A stretch of 25,527 nucleotides of DNA from Candidatus Aenigmatarchaeota archaeon (GTDB lineage Archaea; Aenigmatarchaeota; Aenigmatarchaeia; QMZP01; JAFGSV01). Position numbers and translations under genes: made by a program. Below the pieces are notes generated by a model that worked only from the letters and a program-made list of their open reading frames with translations, was not told where the DNA came from and did no database searches. The first letter of the stretch is position 1; every line of letters begins with the position of its first letter. Below are positions 3,129 to 25,406 of this stretch, in pieces. The DNA lies in NCBI GenBank assembly GCA_043803615.1, contig JAZDJY010000120.1:1-25527 (forward strand), written 5' to 3'.

Positions 3129-6100
3129 ATGGCAGCAGCCGGGTATGCTTATGACGAGAACGAGCAGAGGCTTAGGATAAACTATCTCGGTTCCATCTTC
3201 GGCGCAAGCATCGAGGACTACGCGGAGTGCATGGCCGACGTCCTGGACAAGATCCTCGAAGTCAAGAACGTGAAGAGCGTCGTCCTCATAAAGGACAGGG
3301 AGTACGAGTACGGCCCCGAGCAGTCGGCCATGCTAGTCGAGATAGCAAAGGTCATAGAAGACGTCGTCCGCGAGAGGCTCATGTCGAGAGTGAAGGTCTC
3401 AGACGACCTGCAGAAGAAGCTTTTTCCCGAGATGAACGCGCGGATGCAGGACATCGTCGTAAACCTCCTGCGCAGGGACCCCATAGGCGCCTACGCCGAG
3501 GTGGTGCGCGAGATTAGGCGCATCAGGATAAGGATGGCGGAGACCAAGTACAGGAGCGCCTACGACATCTACGCCGACTACCTCAAGAACGTACTCGGCG
3601 TCATGAGGACGAGGCTTGAAGCGACACAGCTCATAAAGACGGCAAAGCCGCATGTCGCCGGCTACCACAGCGGGGACAGGTCGCTATATAGGGAGATATT
3701 CATTCCCAGCATCCGGCCCAATTTCATGCTCACGAGGTACATGATAACGCCCCCCGAGAACGGCAAGTCCGTGAAGAGGTATAACGTCGGGGACGTCGAG
3801 GTCGAGATATTCAGGCTCCCAGAGAGCGCCGAGTACTTCTACCACGTCCTCCCCCCCGAATTCGTGCTCACCGAGGAGAAGTACGCAGTCCTGGACGCGG
3901 CGAGGAGGTACATGGCGACGCACCAGCCCAAGACCGCGGAGTTCGTGAGGACGGGCAAGATCAGGGAAGTCTTCTATAACATCGGGCGGGACATGATAAG
4001 GGAGGTCGCCGACCAGCACGGCGTCTTCATGAGCGCAAAGGAACTGGACCAGCTGGCGACCATACTCACGAGATATACTGCAGGCCTCGGCGTCCTGGAA
4101 CTGCTCCTGGCAGACGAGAACGTGCAGGACGTCTACATAAACTCCCCTGTCGAGTCGCAGCCCATACTCATAAACCACGCCGAGTTCGAGGAGTGCAGGA
4201 CCAACCTCATCCCGACGCAGGATGACGCGGAGTCCTGGGCGACGAGGCTTAGGATGGAATCGGGAAGGCCGCTTGACGAGGCAAACCCGGTCCTGGACAC
4301 GGACATAGGCGTCCCGGGCGGGAAGGCCAGGTTCTGCGTCATAACGAGGACGCTTTCGCCGCGCGGCCTGGGTTTTGCCATAAGGAGGCACAGGGACAAG
4401 CCGTGGACGCTTCCCCTTTTCATCAAGGCCAAGACCCTTTCCCCGCTTGCGGCAGGCGTCCTGTCATTCCTGATAGACGGCACGGCGAGCATGCTCGTCG
4501 CCGGAGGCAGAGGCGCGGGAAAGACCTCAGTCCTTGCGGCCCTGATGCTGGAGATACTGCCAAAGACGAGAATAGTATCCATCGAAGACAGCGTCACCGG
4601 GGACGCTTCCATCATATACGAGAACGGGGGCGAAATGAAGATTGGCACGGTGGGGGAGCTTGTAGACACGATGGTTGAAAAGTATGACAGTGAAAACATC
4701 CTTGGAAGGGACATACTCGCCTCGAACCCAAAGAATGTGAAGGTTTTTGCAATGGACAGCAAGGGGAAGATACGCCTCGCCCCAGTCAGCAGGTTCATAA
4801 GGCACAAGGTGAACAAGGAAATCTTTGAAATAAGGACGTCTACCGGCAGGAAGATATCCGTCACGGAGGACCACTCCCTCTTCTCGATGGGAGAAGACGG
4901 CTCTGTTTCTTCCGTGAAGTCGAAGAATCTCCGGGAAGGGGACTTCATCGTGACTCCGCGGGTGCTGAAGTTCGAAAACAAGCATGCAAAGTGCATCGAT
5001 TTGTCAAAGCACGCTGAAAAATTGGGTGGTTTTTACCTCACCGGCGCGGCAGTGAGGGAATTTGCCGCCGCCAACAGGAACGCGATAAAGGCGGCCGGGA
5101 AGAAGCTTTGCTACAGCAAGCCGGGAATAAACTACTGGTTCAGGACCGGGACATTCCCTGCAAGGGTATTGTCTTCCATGAAGGAAAGGATAAAGGCAGG
5201 GGACGGCATTTCAATAAAGGCGAACAGGTATTCCCAGCCGATTCCTGCAATCATACACCTTGACGAGGATTTCCTGAAATTTGCCGGCATGTGGCTTGCA
5301 GATGGATGCTGCTACAAGAATTCCGTGATAATATCCGTGATGGAAAAGGAGGAAAGGGACGTTGTAAGAAGTGTCGCAGAAAAGATGGGACTCCGGGTCA
5401 GGATGCATTCCGACGAATGTTCCCTGATGCTGAATTCCGCGGTTCTGGTAAGGGTGATGGGCGACGTCCTTGGCCTCCGGGGAAATGCCTACACGAAAAG
5501 GATGCCTCCCTGGGCCTTCAGGCTTTCGGGAAAGCAGACCGGATGGCTCCTCAATGGCTTTTTCAGCGGCGACGGGTGCGCCTCGGACAAGGAGGTCGTC
5601 GCGTCCATATCCTCGGAAAAGCTCTTGGTGGATATACAGACCATGCTTCTTTCCTTCGGTGTTATATTGAGGATAGGAAAATACAGGAAAAGCGATAAGA
5701 CGTGGCCATCGCACATAAGCTCGCTGAAATCACTGAAGCTTTTCAGGGAAAACGTAGGCTTCGTCCAGCAAAGGAAAATGAAGAGGCTGGATGCACTATG
5801 TTCTAAAGTTTCAACCCACGACAGCTCTGACGTCATACCCCTTTCGGTCGGCCTGAAGAAAAAGATAGCCGGGGTTTGCCCATTTTTCAACAAGAACGAC
5901 TATATCGTGAGGGGAAACGAAATAGGAAGGGAACATATGAAAAAACTTCTTAAGAAGATTGACCCGGAAGAAAAAGAACTGGTAGGGAAGCTTTCCGTTC
6001 TGGCTGAATCCGACATCCTGTGGGACAGGATAACGGAAATAAAATCAGTGACGAAGCCGCAGTACGTCTATGACTTCTCCGTCCCCGGCTTTGAGAACTT

Positions 6101-6914
6101 CGTCTGCAACAATATCCTTGCCCACAACACGCTCGAGCTTCCCATAGACCAGCTCCGGGACATAGGCTATAACGTCGAGAGCCTGAAGTCGCGCTCCGTC
6201 CTCACGATGGTCGAGACCGAGATACCGGCAGACGAGGCCCTGAGGACGGCGCTTCGGCTTGGCGACTCCGCGCTCGTGGTAGGCGAGGTCAGGTCCACCG
6301 AGGCGCGTGCGCTCTACGAGGCCATGAGGATAGGCGCCCTCTCAAACGTCGTCATGGGCACCATCCACGGCGAGAGCGCCTACGGCGTCTTCGACAGGGT
6401 GGTAAACGATCTCCAAGTGCCGCTCACGTCGTTCAAGGCGACCGACATCATACCGATTTGTAAGACGCTGCGGACCGCCGACGGCCTGCACAGGTTCAGA
6501 AGGATGACCGAGATAACCGAAATCCGGAAGAAGTGGGACAAGAATCCGGACAAGGAGGGCGGCTTTGTGAACCTCTTCGAGTACTCGGCAAAGGAGGACA
6601 AGCTCAAGCCGACCGACACGCTCGTAAACGGCGAGTCCGAGACCCTCAACAGGATAGCGGGCTACGTAAAAGAGTGGCACGGGGACTGGCAGGCCGTGTG
6701 GGAGAACATAAACCTGCGCGCAAAGATTAAGAGCGCAACCGTCGAGATGAGCGACAAGCTAGGAAACCCCGAAATCCTCGAGGCGCAGTGGATAATGAAG
6801 TCCAACTCCCAGTTCCATCTCATATCCGAGGCGGTCAGGAAGGAGACGGGGGCAGTCGATTCGGCGCGCGTCTACGACCAGTGGCTTTCGTGGTTCCGCT
6901 CAAAAATCAAGTAG
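3129..6914 (+). CDS. type IV pilus/Tad assembly ATPase (TadA/CpaF/VirB11 family, T2SSE), intein-containing; 748 aa after splicing
   Basis: Walker A GGRGAGKTS, Asp box IED|TLEL (split by the intein), Walker B LVVGEVR, His box GTIHG and RLESGRPLDEANP...AIRRH. Followed by a TadC-like gene and pilins. Confidence 0.92.
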   Translation: MAAAGYAYDENEQRLRINYLGSIFGASIEDYAECMADVLDKILEVKNVKSVVLIKDREYEYGPEQSAMLVEIAKVIEDVVRERLMSRVKVSDDLQKKLFPEMNARMQDIVVNLLRRDPIGAYAEVVREIRRIRIRMAETKYRSAYDIYADYLKNVLGVMRTRLEATQLIKTAKPHVAGYHSGDRSLYREIFIPSIRPNFMLTRYMITPPENGKSVKRYNVGDVEVEIFRLPESAEYFYHVLPPEFVLTEEKYAVLDAARRYMATHQPKTAEFVRTGKIREVFYNIGRDMIREVADQHGVFMSAKELDQLATILTRYTAGLGVLELLLADENVQDVYINSPVESQPILINHAEFEECRTNLIPTQDDAESWATRLRMESGRPLDEANPVLDTDIGVPGGKARFCVITRTLSPRGLGFAIRRHRDKPWTLPLFIKAKTLSPLAAGVLSFLIDGTASMLVAGGRGAGKTSVLAALMLEILPKTRIVSIEDSVTGDASIIYENGGEMKIGTVGELVDTMVEKYDSENILGRDILASNPKNVKVFAMDSKGKIRLAPVSRFIRHKVNKEIFEIRTSTGRKISVTEDHSLFSMGEDGSVSSVKSKNLREGDFIVTPRVLKFENKHAKCIDLSKHAEKLGGFYLTGAAVREFAAANRNAIKAAGKKLCYSKPGINYWFRTGTFPARVLSSMKERIKAGDGISIKANRYSQPIPAIIHLDEDFLKFAGMWLADGCCYKNSVIISVMEKEERDVVRSVAEKMGLRVRMHSDECSLMLNSAVLVRVMGDVLGLRGNAYTKRMPPWAFRLSGKQTGWLLNGFFSGDGCASDKEVVASISSEKLLVDIQTMLLSFGVILRIGKYRKSDKTWPSHISSLKSLKLFRENVGFVQQRKMKRLDALCSKVSTHDSSDVIPLSVGLKKKIAGVCPFFNKNDYIVRGNEIGREHMKKLLKKIDPEEKELVGKLSVLAESDILWDRITEIKSVTKPQYVYDFSVPGFENFVCNNILAHNTLELPIDQLRDIGYNVESLKSRSVLTMVETEIPADEALRTALRLGDSALVVGEVRSTEARALYEAMRIGALSNVVMGTIHGESAYGVFDRVVNDLQVPLTSFKATDIIPICKTLRTADGLHRFRRMTEITEIRKKWDKNPDKEGGFVNLFEYSAKEDKLKPTDTLVNGESETLNRIAGYVKEWHGDWQAVWENINLRAKIKSATVEMSDKLGNPEILEAQWIMKSNSQFHLISEAVRKETGAVDSARVYDQWLSWFRSKIK
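4590..6128 (+). mobile_element. intein with LAGLIDADG homing endonuclease (513 aa)
   Basis: Starts SVTGD, block B TEDHSL, LAGLIDADG motifs FAGMWLADG and LNGFFSGDG, block F/G YVYDFSVPGFENFVCNNILAHN, then +1 Thr. Removal restores IEDTLELP. Visibly more A-rich than the flanking exteins. Confidence 0.95.
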
Positions 6915-6960: not shown

Positions 6961-9075
6961 ATGGGTCTTTTTTCAATCAAGCGAAAGCCCGCGGCAGCTG
7001 AAGGCTACGTGAGCCGTGGGGTCTCCACAGCATCGCCAGGGGGCATAAGCATAGCGTCGAGGGACTATCGGCTCTTCCGGCAGAGGGACAAGGAGAGGCT
7101 TACCTGGTACGAGGTGCTTGCCCAGTCCTCCAGCAAAGTGCTGGACATGAGCTTCGACGAAAAGACGAAAAAGGAGCTTTCCGCCGCAATCGATTTCACG
7201 GGCCTGCGGATAAAGGAGAATTCCCCGGTCGCCCTCTTCATCCTCACAGTCGTTATCTTCTCCTTTGCCGGAGGCTTTGCCTTCGCCCTGAAGGTCCTCC
7301 CTAACGTCTACGGCGTCGTGGCCTTCGTCATGGCGGGGCTGGGCTTCGGATACTATCTCATGCGCTATCCCATAAACCTCATGAAGGCCATGAGGATACA
7401 GGCAAGCTCCCAGGTGGTGCTTGCCGTGCTCTACATGGTCGTCTCGATGAGGATAATCCCAAACATAGAGCACGCGCTGCGGTTTGCGTCTTCGAACATC
7501 TCCGGCGTGCTGGCCTGGGACATGCGAAGGCTCCTATGGGACATAGAGATGGGCAAGTACTACTCCGCAAACGAGGCGCTCCTTGCGTACATAGCCAAGT
7601 GGAAGGCAGAAAACGAGGAGTTCTCCGATGCCCTGCGGCTCCTCATGGAATCCCAAAGCCAGGTGCCGCAGAAGGCCGAAAAGACCCTGGACGAGGCCCT
7701 GCGCGTGGTCCTGGACGGCACGCGCGACAGGATGAAGCACTACTCCCAGGACCTGCAGATGCCAGTCACCATGATACACATGATGGGCATAGTCCTCCCA
7801 ATCCTTGGCTCCGTCATGGCCCCGATGGCCGCAATCTTCCTCGCCGACACCGTGACGTTCTGGCACTTCCTCATCGGCTACGACGTCATCCTCCCGATAC
7901 TCCTCGTGTGGTTCATAAACAACACGCTCGCAAAGAGGCCCGTCACGTTCTCAAAGATTGACATCTCCCACCATCCGGACATGCCCCCAAGCGGAAGCTT
8001 CATGCTGGGCAAGGGAAAGAAGAAGGTCGCAATCCCGATGCTTCCGATTGCGCTCCTCGTGGGCGTCCTCATAGCGCTCCCCGGCGTGATGCACTTCATG
8101 CAGCATCCCGACTACCTCGTCACGCCCATGGTGGACAAGGGGTCCGGCATCCTCGAGCCCGCCGAGGTAGACGACCCGGACCAGTTCCTCACGCTTGTGA
8201 TGTCGCTTCTGATAATACTCGGGGTCAGCGCCGCGGCATCGATATACTTCATCCTGAGCAACGTCCAGCGTTCGCGCGTCGAGGACTCGGTGTACAAGAT
8301 GGAGTCCCAGTTCGAGCTTGCCCTCTTCCACCTGGGGAACAGGATATCCGGCGGGACGCCACTTGAGATAGCGATAGAAAAGGCAAACGAGGACGTAAAA
8401 GACCTGGAGATATCCAACATGTTTTCCATAATCATGCGCAACATGAGGACTCTGGGCATGACGTTTGAGCAGGCGCTCCTCAACCCGCAGTGCGGCGCCC
8501 TGCGCTACTACCCAAGCATCCTGATACAAAACGTCATGAGGACCATAACCGACACGGCCAGGCGCGGCGTGCAGTTTGCCTCCGAGTCCATGCTCACCGT
8601 GTCCCGCTACCTGAAGAACGTGAGGGAGACACAGGAGTTCATGAGGGACATACTCTCCGAGACCACGAGCAGCATGCAGTTCCAGGCCTACGCCATGGCG
8701 CCCCTCGTGAGCGGCCTCATAGTCGCGATGTCCCAGGTCATAATACAGGTGCTCGTGTTCCTGGGAAAGAAGCTTTCCGACTTCGGCGTAAGCGACGCCT
8801 TCCAGATAGACCTCTCCCAGATACTGGGCTCAAGCTCCTCCATAAGCTCCCCCATGTTCCAGCTCATCATCGGCATCTATCTCCTCGAGGTCATAATCAT
8901 CCTTGCCATGTTCGTGACCAAGATCAACCGGGGCGACGACAAGTCCATGCAGTGGTTCCTCGCCGGGAAGATGATAATGGTCGCAATCGCCATATACGCG
9001 ATGGTTGCCATCGGCGCAAGCCTGATGTTCGGCGGCATGATAGAGGGCGCCATGAGCCAGCTGACCACTGGATAG
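6961..9075 (+). CDS. type IV pilus membrane platform protein (TadC/GspF/ArlJ-like, two T2SSF-type halves)
   Basis: 704 aa polytopic protein directly after the ATPase. Two cytoplasmic repeats (LYMVVSMRIIPNIEHAL; LGNRISGGTPLEIAI), each followed by TM bundles. Confidence 0.88.
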   Translation: MGLFSIKRKPAAAEGYVSRGVSTASPGGISIASRDYRLFRQRDKERLTWYEVLAQSSSKVLDMSFDEKTKKELSAAIDFTGLRIKENSPVALFILTVVIFSFAGGFAFALKVLPNVYGVVAFVMAGLGFGYYLMRYPINLMKAMRIQASSQVVLAVLYMVVSMRIIPNIEHALRFASSNISGVLAWDMRRLLWDIEMGKYYSANEALLAYIAKWKAENEEFSDALRLLMESQSQVPQKAEKTLDEALRVVLDGTRDRMKHYSQDLQMPVTMIHMMGIVLPILGSVMAPMAAIFLADTVTFWHFLIGYDVILPILLVWFINNTLAKRPVTFSKIDISHHPDMPPSGSFMLGKGKKKVAIPMLPIALLVGVLIALPGVMHFMQHPDYLVTPMVDKGSGILEPAEVDDPDQFLTLVMSLLIILGVSAAASIYFILSNVQRSRVEDSVYKMESQFELALFHLGNRISGGTPLEIAIEKANEDVKDLEISNMFSIIMRNMRTLGMTFEQALLNPQCGALRYYPSILIQNVMRTITDTARRGVQFASESMLTVSRYLKNVRETQEFMRDILSETTSSMQFQAYAMAPLVSGLIVAMSQVIIQVLVFLGKKLSDFGVSDAFQIDLSQILGSSSSISSPMFQLIIGIYLLEVIIILAMFVTKINRGDDKSMQWFLAGKMIMVAIAIYAMVAIGASLMFGGMIEGAMSQLTTG

Positions 9076-12076: not shown

Positions 12077-12235
12077 ATGGAGTTCACGTTTCGGACCGTA
12101 ATCGTCATGATACTCCTCCTTATCATGGCGCTCGTCTGCGCGACCATAATCCTCGGGTGGAGCGGCGACGCAAACAACCTCTTCCACGCCGTGATAGGCC
12201 CGTTCAGGGATATGGTGTCTTCGAAGCCTTCTTAG
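12077..12235 (+). CDS. 52-aa pilin-like peptide lacking a basic leader (not in ORF track)
   Basis: MEFTFRTVIVMILLLIMALVCATIILGWSGDANNLFHAVIGPFRDMVSSKPS*. ATAAATA box 29 nt upstream; in-frame TAG at 12053. Confidence 0.65.
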   Translation: MEFTFRTVIVMILLLIMALVCATIILGWSGDANNLFHAVIGPFRDMVSSKPS

Positions 12236-12695: not shown

Positions 12696-13343
12696 ATGAA
12701 AGGCGCCGTGCCGGGGATGAACGAGTGGCTTTTTGTCGTGCTCACGATAGTCATCGGGGCACTTGCAATCATGTGGGGCATGGGAAAGCTTGATTTCTCC
12801 GGAGCGAATCCCGACGGGGCTTCTGATGGCAGCAGCAGCGTGATTTTCAGCCGCCAGGAAAGCAAGGTCTCAGCCGGGACGCTTAATGCCTACCTTGAGA
12901 AGAACGCAGGCGAAAAGCTCAAAGGGAAGGGTCAGGTGTTCTACGACCTTGGCGTCAGGTACGACATAGACCCGGCGTTTGCCGTCGCGGTTTCGCAGAA
13001 GGAGACGTCCCTTGGCAGGCAGACGTGCCAGGGGATAAGTGAGAGCTGTAGCAACTTCTTCTGCATAAAGGCCACCGGCGGCGCGGGCGGGAGCGGGGCT
13101 TGCGGCTCCTGGGCGTCCTACGGCACGCCGGAGCAGGGCATCGAGGCATTCTATTCCCTGATAAAGACGGGCTACGTCGACTCCGGACAGGACACGATAG
13201 CCGAGATTGGCTGCGCTCCGGGCTCCGGCTATTCCTCGCACTGCTACTGCGCAGGCGATACGACGCCGTACTGCTCGTCATGGATCGGGGGCGCTTCAGG
13301 CGTTCCCGCGCTAACCGAAAAGGTTGTGGACTACGCCGCCTGA
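12696..13343 (+). CDS. pilin-like protein with lysozyme-fold GH73-like glucosaminidase domain
   Basis: Start MKG|AVPGMNEWLFVVLTIVIGALAIMWG. Domain YDIDPAFAVAVSQKETSLG (putative catalytic Glu at 13002), NFFCIK and SWASYGTPEQGIEAFYSLIKTGY parallel the GH73 motifs A..ES.G, NLFGIK and FR.Y.S.E.SI..Y...L...Y. Confidence 0.78.
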   Translation: MKGAVPGMNEWLFVVLTIVIGALAIMWGMGKLDFSGANPDGASDGSSSVIFSRQESKVSAGTLNAYLEKNAGEKLKGKGQVFYDLGVRYDIDPAFAVAVSQKETSLGRQTCQGISESCSNFFCIKATGGAGGSGACGSWASYGTPEQGIEAFYSLIKTGYVDSGQDTIAEIGCAPGSGYSSHCYCAGDTTPYCSSWIGGASGVPALTEKVVDYAA

Positions 13344-13391: not shown

Positions 13392-13505
13392 ATGGCGAAG
13401 GGCCAGGTGCCCGAGATGGGCATGGGCATGGTCGAGCTCATCATAACCGTCGCGACGATTTCGGTCGTGATTGCGGTCGTCATGTTCCTGATACAAGGCA
13501 AGTGA
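13392..13505 (+). CDS. 37-aa minimal pilin (not in ORF track)
   Basis: MAKG|QVPEMGMGMVELIITVATISVVIAVVMFLIQGK*, a canonical KG|Q cleavage motif. TTTAAG box 27 nt upstream. Confidence 0.75.
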   Translation: MAKGQVPEMGMGMVELIITVATISVVIAVVMFLIQGK

Positions 13506-14572: not shown

Positions 14573-15390
14573 AGAAGGGGCAGCTTGACATAGACATAGA
14601 GTTCATGGGAGGGACCATCATATTCGTGGCACTGGGATGCCTCCTCTACCTGATGATAATAGCGCCGCTCCTTGCCGTCCAGTACGCGACGTCCGAGGCA
14701 GGCTCTAACGTCGGCTCGATGGAGTATTCCAACTACATGAAGAGAAGCCTCCTTGACGCCCGCGGTGACGGCAGCATGATGAGCCGCGCCGGTCTTTCCC
14801 TTGCCGTCTCTTCAGGGCAGCACCCGGCCGGGGCAGGCGCAGGCTACGTCGCGGTGACCGACATGCTCGGGCTGGCAGAATGGGTATTCGACGGGGAAAA
14901 GGATAAGACGTCGTCCCACGAGACCTTCGCCGTGATGTCGACCGACGTCTTCCCCGCACCGGAAGGTTCCTTTTCCGTGATGCAGAAGGGGAAGGACTAC
15001 GTCGTCCACGCCTACAAGGCCGGGGGCACCCTGATGCTAGACATCCACTATGACGTCATATGCGGGAGCGTTTCGCGCGAGGACCCGTCAGCCTTCACGG
15101 CGCCTAGGTGCGAGGACGTGAAACCGCTCAGGGCCGTCGCACTCGACGCGAAGGGCGTTTCTTCATCGTGCGTCGTCCCTGTCAAGAACGGCAAGCAGGA
15201 GAGGACCCTCACGCTGGTCACGGCTTCGTCGGACGTGGAGGCATCTGACCTCGTGCCCGCGGGTCTTGACCTCCTTTTGGCATCAGACTGTGTTCCGGGG
15301 AAGGATGGCGGCATGTGCGTGAGGCTCGTCGGGAGGCAGGCTCTGCCCCTCAGGATTTACGCCGCGTACAAGGGAGGAGCATTCTCATGA
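14566..15390 (+). CDS. minor pilin-like protein
   Basis: MLKKG|QLDIDIEFMGGTIIFVALGCLLYLMII, a canonical KG|Q class III signal peptide. Confidence 0.8.
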   Translation: MLKKGQLDIDIEFMGGTIIFVALGCLLYLMIIAPLLAVQYATSEAGSNVGSMEYSNYMKRSLLDARGDGSMMSRAGLSLAVSSGQHPAGAGAGYVAVTDMLGLAEWVFDGEKDKTSSHETFAVMSTDVFPAPEGSFSVMQKGKDYVVHAYKAGGTLMLDIHYDVICGSVSREDPSAFTAPRCEDVKPLRAVALDAKGVSSSCVVPVKNGKQERTLTLVTASSDVEASDLVPAGLDLLLASDCVPGKDGGMCVRLVGRQALPLRIYAAYKGGAFS

Positions 15391-16403
15391 GGTCCAAGGC
15401 ATCCATCGGGCTCTTCGGCATGGTCATAATAGGGATAATAATACTTGCAATCGTCGCAGTCCTGCACACCTTTCCAAGCATACAGAAATTCGCAAAAGTC
15501 AGGGGCGATGCCGTCACATTCGTCTCCATGAACGACGAGGCCGGGAAGGTCTTCCCCTTGCTTGCAGCATCATACGCCGGCAAGTCCGGCATGGATTTCC
15601 TCGCCTGCAGCATCTCCGGGGTGAAGGACTGCGGGACCATGGGCGATGACCTTGAGCTCCTCGCAGAGGAGATGGACACGGGAGTGGTCCTTTACAGCAA
15701 GACCGGGGCTTTTGCAACCTACGGCAAAAGGAAGGACGGCGAGATATTCGTCGTCGAGATTCCTCTTCCGGGCGGCAAAACCGGGACCGTAGGGTTCATG
15801 TTGGACAGGCCCTCCGTGCAGCCCATGGTCACCGACTGGATATGGCCCCTTGACACGGGCGCAGGCCTTACGGTCCGCAGCTGCTACGGTGAGAAGAGGG
15901 TGAGCGCAAAGAGCGGCCGGCCGTACACCCATTCCGGGATAGACCTCGGGGGCAGCAGCGGCGACAGTGTCTACGCGGTTTCCGGCGGCACCGTCAAGTA
16001 CGTGTGCACCGGGGCAACCGAAGGGGACGTGAACGGCTGCCATGGATACGGCAACATGCTTATCATAAAGCACGGGGACTACTACGTGCGCTACAGCCAC
16101 CTTTCGAAGATTGCTGAGGGAGTTAAGGAAGACCTGAAGGTGGACAAGGGCGACACCATAGGCTACGTCGGCAACACCGGATACTCGTTTGGAAGCCATC
16201 TCGACTTCAAGGTGTACTCCTACGACCCTGACGAGTGGGGATACAATGCGAACATCGACCCGCTGTGCATGTACGGCGAAGGCTACCTGAGCGGCGTCGT
16301 GAAGCTTTCGTACGCCGCAGGCGACGAGGACTGCGGCAGGGCAAGGAGCGTGTGCTCTTCTCAAAGCACGGCAGGGTACGCGCCTTCGGAGAATGACGAG
16401 TGA
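15387..16403 (+). CDS. pilin-like protein with C-terminal M23 family zinc metallopeptidase
   Basis: ATG 15387 overlaps the upstream TGA (ATGA). MRSKA|SIGLFGMVIIGIIILAIVAVL leader. M23 motifs WIWPL, HSGID (15930), GYGNMLIIKH, YSHL, KGDTIGYVGNTGYSFGSHLDF (16197) and DPL. Confidence 0.9.
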   Translation: MRSKASIGLFGMVIIGIIILAIVAVLHTFPSIQKFAKVRGDAVTFVSMNDEAGKVFPLLAASYAGKSGMDFLACSISGVKDCGTMGDDLELLAEEMDTGVVLYSKTGAFATYGKRKDGEIFVVEIPLPGGKTGTVGFMLDRPSVQPMVTDWIWPLDTGAGLTVRSCYGEKRVSAKSGRPYTHSGIDLGGSSGDSVYAVSGGTVKYVCTGATEGDVNGCHGYGNMLIIKHGDYYVRYSHLSKIAEGVKEDLKVDKGDTIGYVGNTGYSFGSHLDFKVYSYDPDEWGYNANIDPLCMYGEGYLSGVVKLSYAAGDEDCGRARSVCSSQSTAGYAPSENDE

Positions 16404-24578: not shown

Positions 24579-25406
24579 TCACTCTATCCAGGGGTAGGCC
24601 TTCCTGACTTCCTGGACGAAGACTGATGGTGAGAAATTCCCCAGTTCGGAGATTATGGAGGTTATGAGCTTCCTGTCGACGTTCTCAAAGGCCAGGTTCA
24701 TTATCTTTACTCCCCTCGGGGGTTTGTCCCAGATTTCCTTTGCGTCCCTCCGTTCGACCGGCTCCTTCTTCCCAAAGACCGTGATGGGGTCGTACTTCCA
24801 GGAATTGGTGCAGCAGTAGGCATCCTTGCCATAACTGTCGGCAATCTGGGCAAACATCTCGGTGCCTATCTTGTTCACAACTTTTCCCTCACTCGTTATC
24901 GCGTCTGCCCCGAAGAGGAACATGTCGCTTTCCTTCATGGCAATCCTTGCCCCGGAGTCCACCCACATCGTGACGGGAATCCCCATGGACGCGACGTCCC
25001 TTGCCGTCTTCCTTCCCTGCATGAGCGGCCTGGTCTCGGTGCAGTTGACGCAGAACTTCTTCCCGTCTTCCTTGGCCTTCCTGATTATGTCGATGACGAC
25101 CGATGAATGGCAGTGGGTGAAGACCGTCATCCCGTCCTCTATCTTCATCGAGCCGTACTGCGCAATCTTCCTGCGCGACTCCTCGAAGTGGGCTAGCGCC
25201 AGCGGGCCGAACTTCTCCGGGTTCCCTTTGACATACCTTACGACGTTCCTAAGGCACGGCTCGGTGGGCCTAAGCGAGATGAGCTTTGAGACGGCCCTTT
25301 GGTCACTTCGGAGCATGAGCGCGTCGACTGCGGCCTTTGCCACGTTCTCGGCGCCCTGTATCCTGACCGCCTTTATGTCACTGCAGATCCTTTCGAATTT
25401 GTCCAT
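24579..25406 (-). CDS. e2b2: ribose-1,5-bisphosphate isomerase (eIF-2B-like family)
   Basis: IRIQGA-like VRIQGAE, RPTEP, THCHSS (catalytic Cys), ETRP..QG, GADAIT (catalytic Asp), NKIGT and NLAFE. Upstream of rbcL and AMP phosphorylase. Confidence 0.93.
   Translation of the reverse strand: MDKFERICSDIKAVRIQGAENVAKAAVDALMLRSDQRAVSKLISLRPTEPCLRNVVRYVKGNPEKFGPLALAHFEESRRKIAQYGSMKIEDGMTVFTHCHSSVVIDIIRKAKEDGKKFCVNCTETRPLMQGRKTARDVASMGIPVTMWVDSGARIAMKESDMFLFGADAITSEGKVVNKIGTEMFAQIADSYGKDAYCCTNSWKYDPITVFGKKEPVERRDAKEIWDKPPRGVKIMNLAFENVDRKLITSIISELGNFSPSVFVQEVRKAYPWIE

What the first reader, a model, noticed from the sequence alone, without database searches (positions are those of the whole stretch)
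15387..16403. Pilin fused to an M23 endopeptidase with an HxD variant of the HxH motif
Seen: KA|S leader, a pilin-like domain of about 125 aa, then a complete M23 domain with HxxxD (HSGID), YSH and SHLDF. Established: M23 enzymes (LytM, lysostaphin, MepM) bind Zn through HxxxD plus the second His of HxH. Here that ligand is Asp, which can still bind metal. Inference: an active or tuned peptidoglycan cross-link peptidase, or, if inactive, a wall-binding adhesin domain. Either way it implies a peptidoglycan-bearing target.
Basis: partly seen in the sequence, partly recalled or inferred. Interest (0 to 1): 0.85.

Follow-up and report, generated by a model that had tools for sequence, protein, structure and literature searches.

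The report
Archaeal pilin-like carrier of wall-cutting peptidase
A tiny DPANN archaeon (Aenigmarchaeota) encodes, in a pilus-building operon, a pilin-style carrier protein ending in a bacterial-cell-wall peptidase with an Asp at one metal-binding position; close relatives carry other wall-cutting enzymes or none in the same gene slot, which points to bacteria as the target.

Summary
ORF 15387-16403 (+) encodes 338 aa: a pilin-type leader (MRSKA|S), a hydrophobic helix, a conserved 110-aa head, a linker and a full M23 domain (Pfam E 1e-21). The motifs are H182-x3-D186, H238 and H271-L-D273, and D273 aligns on the zinc-ligand His of solved M23 enzymes.

The HxD motif is not a one-off. It marks a large M23 subfamily, mostly in DPANN archaea but also in Carnobacteriaceae. 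It goes with Lys two residues later: HLHFE becomes HLDFK (K in 0/137 HxH domains, 49/59 HxD domains). One orthologue in the same genus has HLHFE.

The strongest result is comparative. In the same operon slot, relatives carry the same carrier module joined to M23-HxD, M23-HxH, Peptidase_M15_4 or CHAP, or to nothing. Neighbouring pilin-like genes carry GH73-like, SLT, Amidase_3+YkuD or PG_binding_1 domains. This argues that the target is bacterial murein.

Catalysis, metal use and incorporation into a filament are not shown, and the carrier head matches no solved pilin fold.

Earlier notes of this scan report pilin-linked wall hydrolases on other DPANN DNA (42 notes, at least 37 genomes) and HLD-type M23 domains. 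I found no paper in the searched library that describes archaeal pilin-peptidoglycan-hydrolase fusions. I class it as a new variant of known kinds: modular pilins and archaeal peptidoglycan hydrolases.

The parts
15387..16403 (+). Whole gene: 338-aa pilin-like carrier fused to an M23 peptidase (stop codon included)
   Evidence: translationally coupled to both neighbours
15387..15401 (+). Putative class III (prepilin-type) leader MRSKA; predicted cleavage after Ala5
   Evidence: Sequence; [KR][GA] conserved in 21 homologues of the carrier module; a Peptidase_A24 gene is present elsewhere in the genome. Cleavage not tested.
15402..15473 (+). Hydrophobic alpha1-N helix (SIGLFGMVIIGIIILAIVAVLHTF)
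   Evidence: helix 3-41 in the AF2 models
15474..15806 (+). Conserved carrier head (three helices plus a four-stranded sheet; ND[ED], PLL and IPLPGG motifs). It also occurs alone or joined to other wall hydrolases.
   Evidence: no PDB fold match
15807..15866 (+). Linker (RPSVQPMVTDWIWPLDTGAG), low model confidence
   Evidence: pLDDT <50 for residues 142-159
15867..16271 (+). M23 (LytM-type) peptidase domain; six invariant Cys in the protein (C166, C207, C218, C294, C316, C323)
15930..15944 (+). HxxxD motif HSGID (H182, D186: metal ligands by homology)
16098..16100 (+). H238 of YSH (equivalent of catalytic H260 of LytM, by homology)
16197..16211 (+). HLDFK: H271 (catalytic His), D273 in place of the Zn-ligand His, K275 in place of the usual Glu
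16272..16403 (+). Conserved Cys-containing C-terminal tail with an acidic end; function unknown; poorly modelled
3129..6914 (+). Context: type IV filament ATPase (T2SSE) interrupted by an intein
6961..9075 (+). Context: platform protein (T2SSF/GspF-like by feature and structure look-alikes)
   Evidence: no Pfam hit
12696..13343 (+). Context: pilin-like protein with a weak GH73/glucosaminidase-like domain
   Evidence: Pfam E 2.3e-4, below cut-off; AtlE E 0.15; same weak hit in orthologous loci
13392..13505 (+). Context: 37-aa pilin-like peptide MAKG|QVPE... (candidate filament core subunit)
   Evidence: 38-46-aa genes at the same place in relatives
16412..17278 (+). Context: last pilin-like gene of the operon. 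Its counterpart in the same operon position carries PKD+YkuD+Amidase_3 in one relative and PG_binding_1 in another.

Best explanation
The gene encodes a modular type-IV-pilin-like protein of a wall-less DPANN archaeon. Proposed steps, all inferred unless marked:
1. The short leader (MRSKA) is removed by the genome's A24 prepilin peptidase.
2. The hydrophobic helix holds the protein in the membrane. It is then taken up by the ATPase/platform machine encoded upstream, together with the nine other pilin-like products of the operon, into a pilus or short pseudopilus.
3. The conserved head acts as a carrier, and the M23 domain on a roughly 20-residue linker is the cargo.
4. The M23 domain is a working metallo-endopeptidase that cuts peptide stems or cross-links of bacterial murein. 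Its metal is held by H182, D186 and D273, and K275 takes the second-shell place that Glu has in HLHFE enzymes.
5. Together with the glycan-cutting pilin-like neighbour, it opens the sacculus of a bacterium on contact, for attachment, parasitism or predation.
Shown here: the gene, the domains, the motifs, their conservation, the operon, and the cargo swapping in relatives.
For: - M23 domain: Pfam 77 bits, PDB profile hits to active enzymes (zoocin A 1e-17, ShyA, Csd3), Foldseek matches to M23 structures.
- Four of the five catalytic or ligand residues are kept and the fifth is Asp. All five are invariant across orthologues of 41-91% identity and across 59 HxD domains.
- The E-to-K change two residues after the ligand goes with it: K in 0/137 HxH domains against 49/59 HxD domains.
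- A same-genus orthologue with 59% identity in the M23 domain has HLHFE, so the two states replace each other within one orthologous lineage.
- Pilus context: T2SSE ATPase, T2SSF-like platform, ten genes with [KR][GA]+hydrophobic N-termini, translational coupling, an A24 peptidase in the genome.
- Synteny is conserved down to 41% identity.
- Cargo swap at the same slot: M15_4 in G029, G031 and G067 of the same genus, none in the sister genus, CHAP in a metagenomic relative.
- Other murein-directed modules sit on neighbouring pilin-like genes: SLT and PG_binding_1 in family f3, Amidase_3+YkuD in G054.
- The genome has only this one M23 gene.
- No NagA or MurQ above cut-off in five genomes of the genus, two of them at least 91% complete. 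This speaks weakly against amino-sugar feeding.
Against: - No activity, metal or localisation data exist.
- No solved structure among the five best PDB matches to the HxD-clade profile has HLD.
- The Zn co-folding job was not folded, so it gives no evidence either way.
- The carrier head has no detectable similarity to solved pilins, and no pilin HMM hits. The N-terminus could be a plain membrane anchor.
- The D/K covariation rests on only one well-supported independent contrast.
- The host or prey is unknown. All cultivated DPANN have archaeal hosts (abstract of PMC11291902, listed).
- No sequencing run was listed, so expression is unknown.
- The genome is 65.5% complete.
Confidence: 0.55

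Rival explanations
1. Surface 'hydrolosome' for scavenging. The pilin-like N-termini only anchor or assemble a cell-surface array, analogous to the Sulfolobus bindosome. The enzymes digest free murein debris to release peptides or amino sugars as nutrients, without contact with living bacteria.
For: [quoted passage not shown] DPANN have small genomes and depend on external building blocks. The operon lies beside a nucleotide-salvage and lower-glycolysis cluster.
Against: No ABC transporter or binding protein is in the locus. No NagA or MurQ above cut-off in five genomes of the genus. The locus has ten pilin-like genes, including a 37-aa core-like subunit, plus a dedicated ATPase and platform, which is more than an anchor needs.
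Confidence: 0.2
2. The M23 domain is catalytically dead. It serves as a murein-binding adhesin, or as a LytM-type activator of a partner hydrolase, as EnvC and NlpD activate Amidase_3 enzymes.
For: A canonical Zn ligand is replaced. In one relative the next gene carries Amidase_3. Degenerate LytM domains are common in bacteria (EnvC and SpoIIQ appear among the structural matches).
Against: EnvC/NlpD-type domains have lost several ligand and catalytic residues (established knowledge). Here four of five are invariant, and the fifth is a metal-binding Asp with a coupled Lys. The slot is otherwise filled by the catalytic families M15_4 and CHAP, or by an HxH M23. The window's own genome and three of four close relatives have no Amidase_3.
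Confidence: 0.13
3. The substrate is not bacterial murein. It could be pseudomurein of a methanogen host, a Gly-rich surface protein of an archaeal host, or the organism's own pilins or surface proteins.
For: Cultivated DPANN live on archaea (abstract of PMC11291902, listed). Some M23 enzymes cut Gly-rich proteins (LasA; own knowledge). Stand-alone carrier modules end in Gly-rich tails.
Against: The domain types that replace or accompany M23 here are Peptidase_M15_4 (Pfam: D-alanyl-D-alanine carboxypeptidase), Amidase_3 (Pfam: N-acetylmuramoyl-L-alanine amidase), YkuD, SLT, GH73-like and PG_binding_1. They act on or bind features that pseudomurein lacks, namely D-amino acids, MurNAc and beta-1,4 glycan (established knowledge).
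Confidence: 0.08

Closest known systems
Bacterial modular type IV pilins (Streptococcus sanguinis PilB-vWA and PilC-lectin; survey of 264 architectures; PMC8179133)
   Same: [quoted passage not shown] Peptidase modules (S74, M26) are listed in that survey.
   Different: This is archaeal, the cargo is a murein hydrolase, and the carrier head is a distinct conserved module with no PDB pilin match. In the passages found in that paper for the terms peptidase, hydrolase and enzym, only S74 and M26 peptidase modules appear. Incorporation into a filament is not shown here.
Catalytic M23B peptidases: zoocin A, LytM, lysostaphin, ShyA, Csd3, EnpA
   Same: Same fold and same HxxxD, catalytic His and first His of HxH. 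Zoocin A is the best PDB sequence match and shares the C-terminal G(Y/F)xxxIDP extension.
   Different: The second His of HxH (Zn ligand) is Asp, and the following Glu/Gln is Lys. There are extra conserved Cys and an insertion between residues 207 and 218. The domain is fused to a pilin-like carrier, not to SH3b, LysM or a coiled coil.
Archaeal peptidoglycan hydrolases that kill bacteria (Woldo/Danwoldo of Halogranum salarium; PMC12352652)
   Same: An archaeon without murein encodes an M23 domain of zoocin A type aimed at bacteria.
   Different: Those proteins join M23 to PG_binding_1 domains, and the paper does not mention pilins or pili (0 occurrences). The protein here is a pilin-like fusion inside a filament operon of a DPANN archaeon, with an HxD metal site.
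Sulfolobus bindosome and archaeal binding proteins with class III signal peptides (PMC13705601)
   Same: [quoted passage not shown]
   Different: The cargo there is a substrate-binding protein linked to ABC transporters. Here the cargo is a hydrolase, the gene lies inside the machine's own operon, and no transporter is present. That paper does not mention peptidoglycan, hydrolases or M23.
Degenerate LytM factors EnvC, NlpD and SpoIIQ
   Same: An M23 fold with an altered metal site; possible partnership with Amidase_3 in one relative.
   Different: Those have lost several active-site residues (established knowledge). Here only one is changed, to another metal-binding residue, and it is strictly conserved.

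Membership tests
Peptidase family M23 (Pfam PF01551; MEROPS M23B) | Domain recognised by the family HMM above the curated cut-off, with a LytM-type fold | tested here: met
   77.3 bits against a cut-off of 28.7; 80.1 bits in the genome scan; Foldseek E 1.5e-8 to 6jmy, ShyA, EnpA and LytM
Peptidase family M23 (Pfam PF01551; MEROPS M23B) | HxxxD motif (two metal ligands) | tested here: met
   H182 and D186, invariant in 8 homologues; aligned to zoocin A, Gp16 and Csd3
Peptidase family M23 (Pfam PF01551; MEROPS M23B) | Catalytic His of the central strand (LytM H260) and first His of HxH (LytM H291) | tested here: met
   H238 and H271 invariant
Peptidase family M23 (Pfam PF01551; MEROPS M23B) | Second His of HxH as the third metal ligand (LytM H293) | tested here: not met
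   Asp273 aligns on that His. The same holds in 59 related domains. This is a variant subfamily, not the canonical site.
Peptidase family M23 (Pfam PF01551; MEROPS M23B) | Zn-dependent cleavage of murein peptides | not testable with these tools
   The Zn co-folding job was not folded; no biochemical data
Type IV pilins / class III signal peptide proteins | Short basic leader ending in Gly/Ala, followed at once by about 20 hydrophobic residues | tested here: met
   MRSKA|SIGLFGMVIIGIIILAIVAVLHTF; pattern conserved in 21 homologues and in nine other genes of the operon
Type IV pilins / class III signal peptide proteins | Recognition by a pilin or archaeal class III signal HMM | tested here: not met
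   No pilin family in Pfam or NCBIfam at E<=1
Type IV pilins / class III signal peptide proteins | Prepilin peptidase, assembly ATPase and platform protein available | tested here: met
   Peptidase_A24 on contig C138; T2SSE ATPase at 3129-6914; T2SSF-like platform at 6961-9075, all in or near the operon
Type IV pilins / class III signal peptide proteins | Lollipop fold: long alpha1 helix plus a beta-sheet head resembling known pilins | tested here: inconclusive
   AF2 gives helix 3-41 and an alpha/beta head with four strands (pLDDT 75), but no PDB match at E<1e-3
Type IV pilins / class III signal peptide proteins | Leader cleavage and incorporation into a filament | not testable with these tools
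   Needs biochemistry or microscopy
Degenerate LytM activators (EnvC/NlpD type) | Loss of most metal-ligand and catalytic residues | tested here: not met
   Four of five kept, and the fifth is Asp
Bindosome-type class III signal peptide binding proteins | Substrate-binding domain and linkage to an ABC transporter | tested here: not met
   No binding-protein or ABC domains in the locus

The most novel reading that the evidence does not exclude
The coupled change HLHFE to HLDFK turns the M23 metal site from His/Asp/His with a second-shell Glu into His/Asp/Asp with a second-shell Lys. This might alter metal preference or affinity, for example towards Fe(II), Mn(II) or Co(II), or give function when zinc is scarce in anoxic, sulfidic or alkaline habitats. 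It would define a functionally distinct class of murein endopeptidases that DPANN archaea mount on pilus subunits to breach bacteria. That would make bacteria, not archaea, the partners or prey of this Aenigmarchaeota lineage.
Probability: 0.2. Interest if true: 0.8.

Novelty: new variant of a known kind. Interest (0 to 1): 0.6.

Why it matters
All cultivated DPANN archaea live on other archaea, and the partners of Aenigmarchaeota are unknown. A conserved pilus operon whose subunits carry interchangeable murein-specific enzymes is concrete, testable evidence that this lineage touches bacteria. It also names the proteins to tag or assay. Separately, the HxD+K site is a natural, strictly conserved alternative to the textbook M23 zinc site. 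An orthologue in the same genus that differs in just this pair offers a ready-made comparison for asking what the third ligand does for metal choice and activity in lysostaphin-type enzymes.

Tried and rejected
- Zn co-folding of the M23 domain: the job was not folded, so it is not evidence.
I replaced it with a degenerate DNA pattern.
- Word-based search with the carrier module alone: found only a fragment of a close homologue.
- Public sequencing runs: none was listed, so there is no expression or habitat information.
- Taxon names for the HxD clade through cluster look-ups: mostly unnamed. The only names were Woesearchaeota and 'archaeon'.
- Foldseek of the carrier head: only chance-level hits (ribosomal protein S3, CqsR). 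I rejected these as meaningless.
- Mur_ligase_M hit in the own genome: rejected as evidence for an own wall, because the wall-less controls M. jannaschii and H. volcanii also match.
- TIGR00274 (MurQ) hits: below cut-off and confined to a partial region of roughly 600-aa ORFs. They are not MurQ.
- Independent-contrast test of the D/K covariation: only one contrast lies on supported branches, so I make no statistical claim.
- Recent transfer from a bacterial donor: not supported, because carrier-M23 fusions occur in three families of the order and the domain groups with DPANN sequences. The tree is too poorly resolved to exclude older transfer.
Full report
**The gene and its parts.** The window is archaeal. 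It holds Alba, form III RuBisCO with AMP phosphorylase, and an intein-bearing T2SSE ATPase. The assembly is 688 kb in 138 contigs and 65.5% complete. The nearest named relatives of the protein are Candidatus Aenigmarchaeota/Aenigmatarchaeota MAGs.

ORF 15387-16403 (+) encodes 338 aa. Its ATG has a GGAGG 8 nt upstream and overlaps the stop of the preceding gene. The next gene starts 9 nt after its stop. The product reads:
- leader MRSKA
- 24 hydrophobic residues
- a 110-residue head
- a linker of about 20 residues
- an M23 domain
- a Cys-containing acidic tail

Pfam Peptidase_M23 scores 77.3 bits (cut-off 28.7, E 1e-21, residues 181-278). NCBIfam gives only partial, sub-threshold matches to MepM, ShyA, NlpD and others. 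This is far beyond chance.

**The HxD observation.** Eight full-length homologues of 41-91% identity keep H182, D186, H238, H271 and D273 without exception. They also keep six Cys. A profile of these sequences matches solved M23 enzymes: zoocin A 1e-17, phage Gp16, Csd3, ShyA, LytM and lysostaphin. It puts HLD exactly on their HLH. From established work on LytM, Zn is bound by H210, D214 and H293, and H260 and H291 are catalytic. An AF2 model (pLDDT 61 overall, 70-90 in the M23 part) matches M23 structures by Foldseek.

**HxD is a subfamily trait, not a peculiarity.** An exhaustive HMMER search of 1.84 billion representatives gave 38,474 hits at E<=1e-3. The figures are:
- In the 150 best hits plus the hits, 59 domains have H-x-D and 137 have H-x-H.
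- On a tree of 166 domains, 46 of 57 HxD rows fall in one group of 50, and a clade with 98% SH-aLRT holds 36 HxD of 38. The label needs 10 changes against 46.6 for shuffled labels.
- The tree has few columns and is mostly unresolved.
- A degenerate DNA pattern for G-x-HLDFKVY found 21 places in the species-level genome collection, and 18 are true M23 domains.
- Twelve of these are in DPANN-type archaeal MAGs: Pace-, Woese-, Nano- and Aenigmat-archaeota, plus MAGs labelled 'uncultured archaeon' or 'uncultured Methanosarcinales archaeon'. Six are in Carnobacteriaceae (Alkalibacterium, Marinilactibacillus).

Named cluster members include a Woesearchaeota M23B+Amidase_3 protein. Among the five best PDB matches to the HxD-clade profile, all have HLH. 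A search of the paper library for M23, HxH and HxD together found nothing.

**A coupled second change.** The residue two positions after the ligand is Glu in 106 of 137 HxH domains and never Lys. In HxD domains it is Lys in 49 of 59 and Arg in 3. Alternate residues of a beta-strand face the same side, as H271 and D273 do. I therefore infer that Lys275 sits next to Asp273, in the position where Glu can back the ligand His in canonical enzymes. This is inference; I could not read model coordinates. The statistical support is limited: only one independent contrast lies on well-supported branches.

There is a natural test case. In the same genus, G238 has a full-length orthologue whose M23 domain is 59% identical to the window's. 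That is within the range of the HxD orthologues (53-66%). With the motif masked, it is nearest to them on the tree. It reads HLHFE. So the two states replace each other within one orthologous lineage. This fits a working alternative site better than decay.

**The N-terminal part.** Residues 1-140 form a module found on its own in proteins of 147-190 aa, and with other C-terminal domains. The alignment shows [KR][GA] before a hydrophobic stretch, then ND[ED], PLL and IPLPGG motifs. AF2 on this alignment (pLDDT 75) gives a long N-terminal helix and an alpha/beta head with four strands. Foldseek finds no PDB match at E<1e-3, and no pilin HMM hits.

The case for 'pilin-like' therefore rests on three things:
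- the signal-peptide pattern
- an A24 prepilin peptidase in the genome
- the operon, which has a T2SSE ATPase, a T2SSF-like platform protein (no Pfam hit) and ten consecutive genes with the same kind of N-terminus, one of them a 37-aa helix-only peptide

**Comparative evidence on function.** The operon is syntenic in relatives down to 41% identity. The order is ATPase, platform, a roughly 900-aa protein, small pilin-like genes, a GH73-like gene, a mini-pilin, three further genes, the M23 fusion, a last pilin-like gene, then Alba, enolase and iPGM.

A survey of 301 genomes of the phylum found matches in 97. The contents of the slot vary as follows:

| Group | Genomes | Cargo on the carrier module |
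|---|---|---|
| Own genus | window, G054, G012, G143 | M23 with HxD |
| Own genus | G238 | M23 with HxH |
| Own genus | G029, G031, G067 | Peptidase_M15_4, same slot with identical flanks |
| Sister genus | G104, G242, G299 | none (carrier alone) |
| Metagenomic relative | P0141 | CHAP |
| Families f3 and f4, same order | several | M23 with HLHFE, 330-360 aa |

Neighbouring pilin-like genes also carry murein-directed modules. In G073 the neighbours carry SLT (E 1.3e-15) and PG_binding_1 (E 8e-8). In G054 the last gene has PKD, YkuD and Amidase_3. The window's own GH73-like neighbour is only weakly supported (Pfam E 2.3e-4; AtlE E 0.15).

All these modules act on or bind features of bacterial murein: D-amino-acid stems, MurNAc-L-Ala and the beta-1,4 glycan. 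Pseudomurein lacks these features (established knowledge). Cargo at this slot has turned over repeatedly, and every cargo found is murein-directed. This is the main argument that the target is a bacterial wall.

**Mechanism and rivals.** The best reading (0.55) is a pilus- or pseudopilus-borne, catalytically competent endopeptidase used on contact with bacteria.
- Scavenging by a bindosome-like surface array (0.2) is possible. No transporter is linked, and NagA and MurQ were not found above cut-off in five genomes of the genus. These genomes are incomplete, so absence is not proven.
- A dead binding or activator domain (0.13) fits the changed ligand. It does not fit the strict conservation of all five positions or the catalytic families that replace M23.
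- A substrate other than murein (0.08) is the least compatible with the set of domains.

**What is known.** Modular pilins are established in bacteria, with peptidase modules noted (PMC8179133). Binding proteins with class III signal peptides are widespread in archaea (PMC13705601). Archaeal M23 hydrolases kill bacteria (PMC12352652). Murein-degrading genes in DPANN have been read as 'vampiristic' (PMC9723730). None of the papers I read describes pilin-hydrolase fusions in archaea or the HxD+K site.

Earlier notes of this scan report the same kind of locus on other DNA (42 notes, at least 37 genomes) and HLD-type M23 domains, including bacterial ones. My tests agree with them. They add the within-genus cargo series, the HLHFE orthologue and the E/K coupling.

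**Verdict.** The gene is real and well conserved. It is a new variant of known kinds. The locus as a whole is a good experimental handle on the question of the partner of Aenigmarchaeota.

Noticed in passing
window 3129-6914 (+): The pilus ATPase (T2SSE) is split by an intein with a LAGLIDADG homing-endonuclease domain (Intein_splicing E 1.5e-28). The orthologous ATPases in two relatives are listed at 748 aa, against 1261 aa here, so they apparently lack the insert.
   Followed up: partly
window 13392-13505 (+): A 37-aa ORF, MAKG|QVPE followed by a hydrophobic helix, is conserved as a 38-46-aa gene at the same place in relatives. It is a candidate head-less core subunit of the filament.
   Followed up: partly
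window 12077-12235 (+): A 52-aa hydrophobic ORF (MEFTFRTVIVMILLL...) lies between the 943-aa and 107-aa genes. It matches the position of 49-59-aa called genes in related loci.
   Followed up: no
L003 11046-14657 (G054, same genus): The last pilin-like gene of the operon is expanded to 1203 aa with PKD, YkuD (L,D-transpeptidase fold) and Amidase_3 domains. It is the only Amidase_3 hit among five genomes of the genus.
   Followed up: partly
L066 8971-12942 (G073, another family of the same order): The equivalent cluster carries SLT on one gene with an N-terminal hydrophobic helix, M23 (HLHFE) on a pilin-like gene, and PG_binding_1 on the last pilin-like gene.
   Followed up: partly
L021, L024, L029, L030, L039, L041 (Alkalibacterium, Marinilactibacillus): Cultured Carnobacteriaceae have proteins of about 470 aa ending in an M23 domain with the exact HLDFKVY motif. 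They could serve as tractable bacterial models for the HxD+K site.
   Followed up: no
P0050, P0168, P0159, P0098 (stand-alone carrier modules): Carrier modules without an enzyme end in Gly-rich tails (for example GGGGGGFGGG), possibly linker remnants or flexible tips.
   Followed up: no
window 17381-25406: Directly downstream lie Alba, enolase, iPGM, a 131-aa ORF, AMP phosphorylase and form III RuBisCO. In relatives, R15P isomerase and RadA follow. This neighbourhood is conserved next to the pilus operon in all related loci examined.
   Followed up: no
G000 contigs C57, C133, C83: Three further T2SSE ATPases are in the genome, so the organism probably has several type IV filament systems. The one in the window is the most divergent from the Pfam model.
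   Followed up: no
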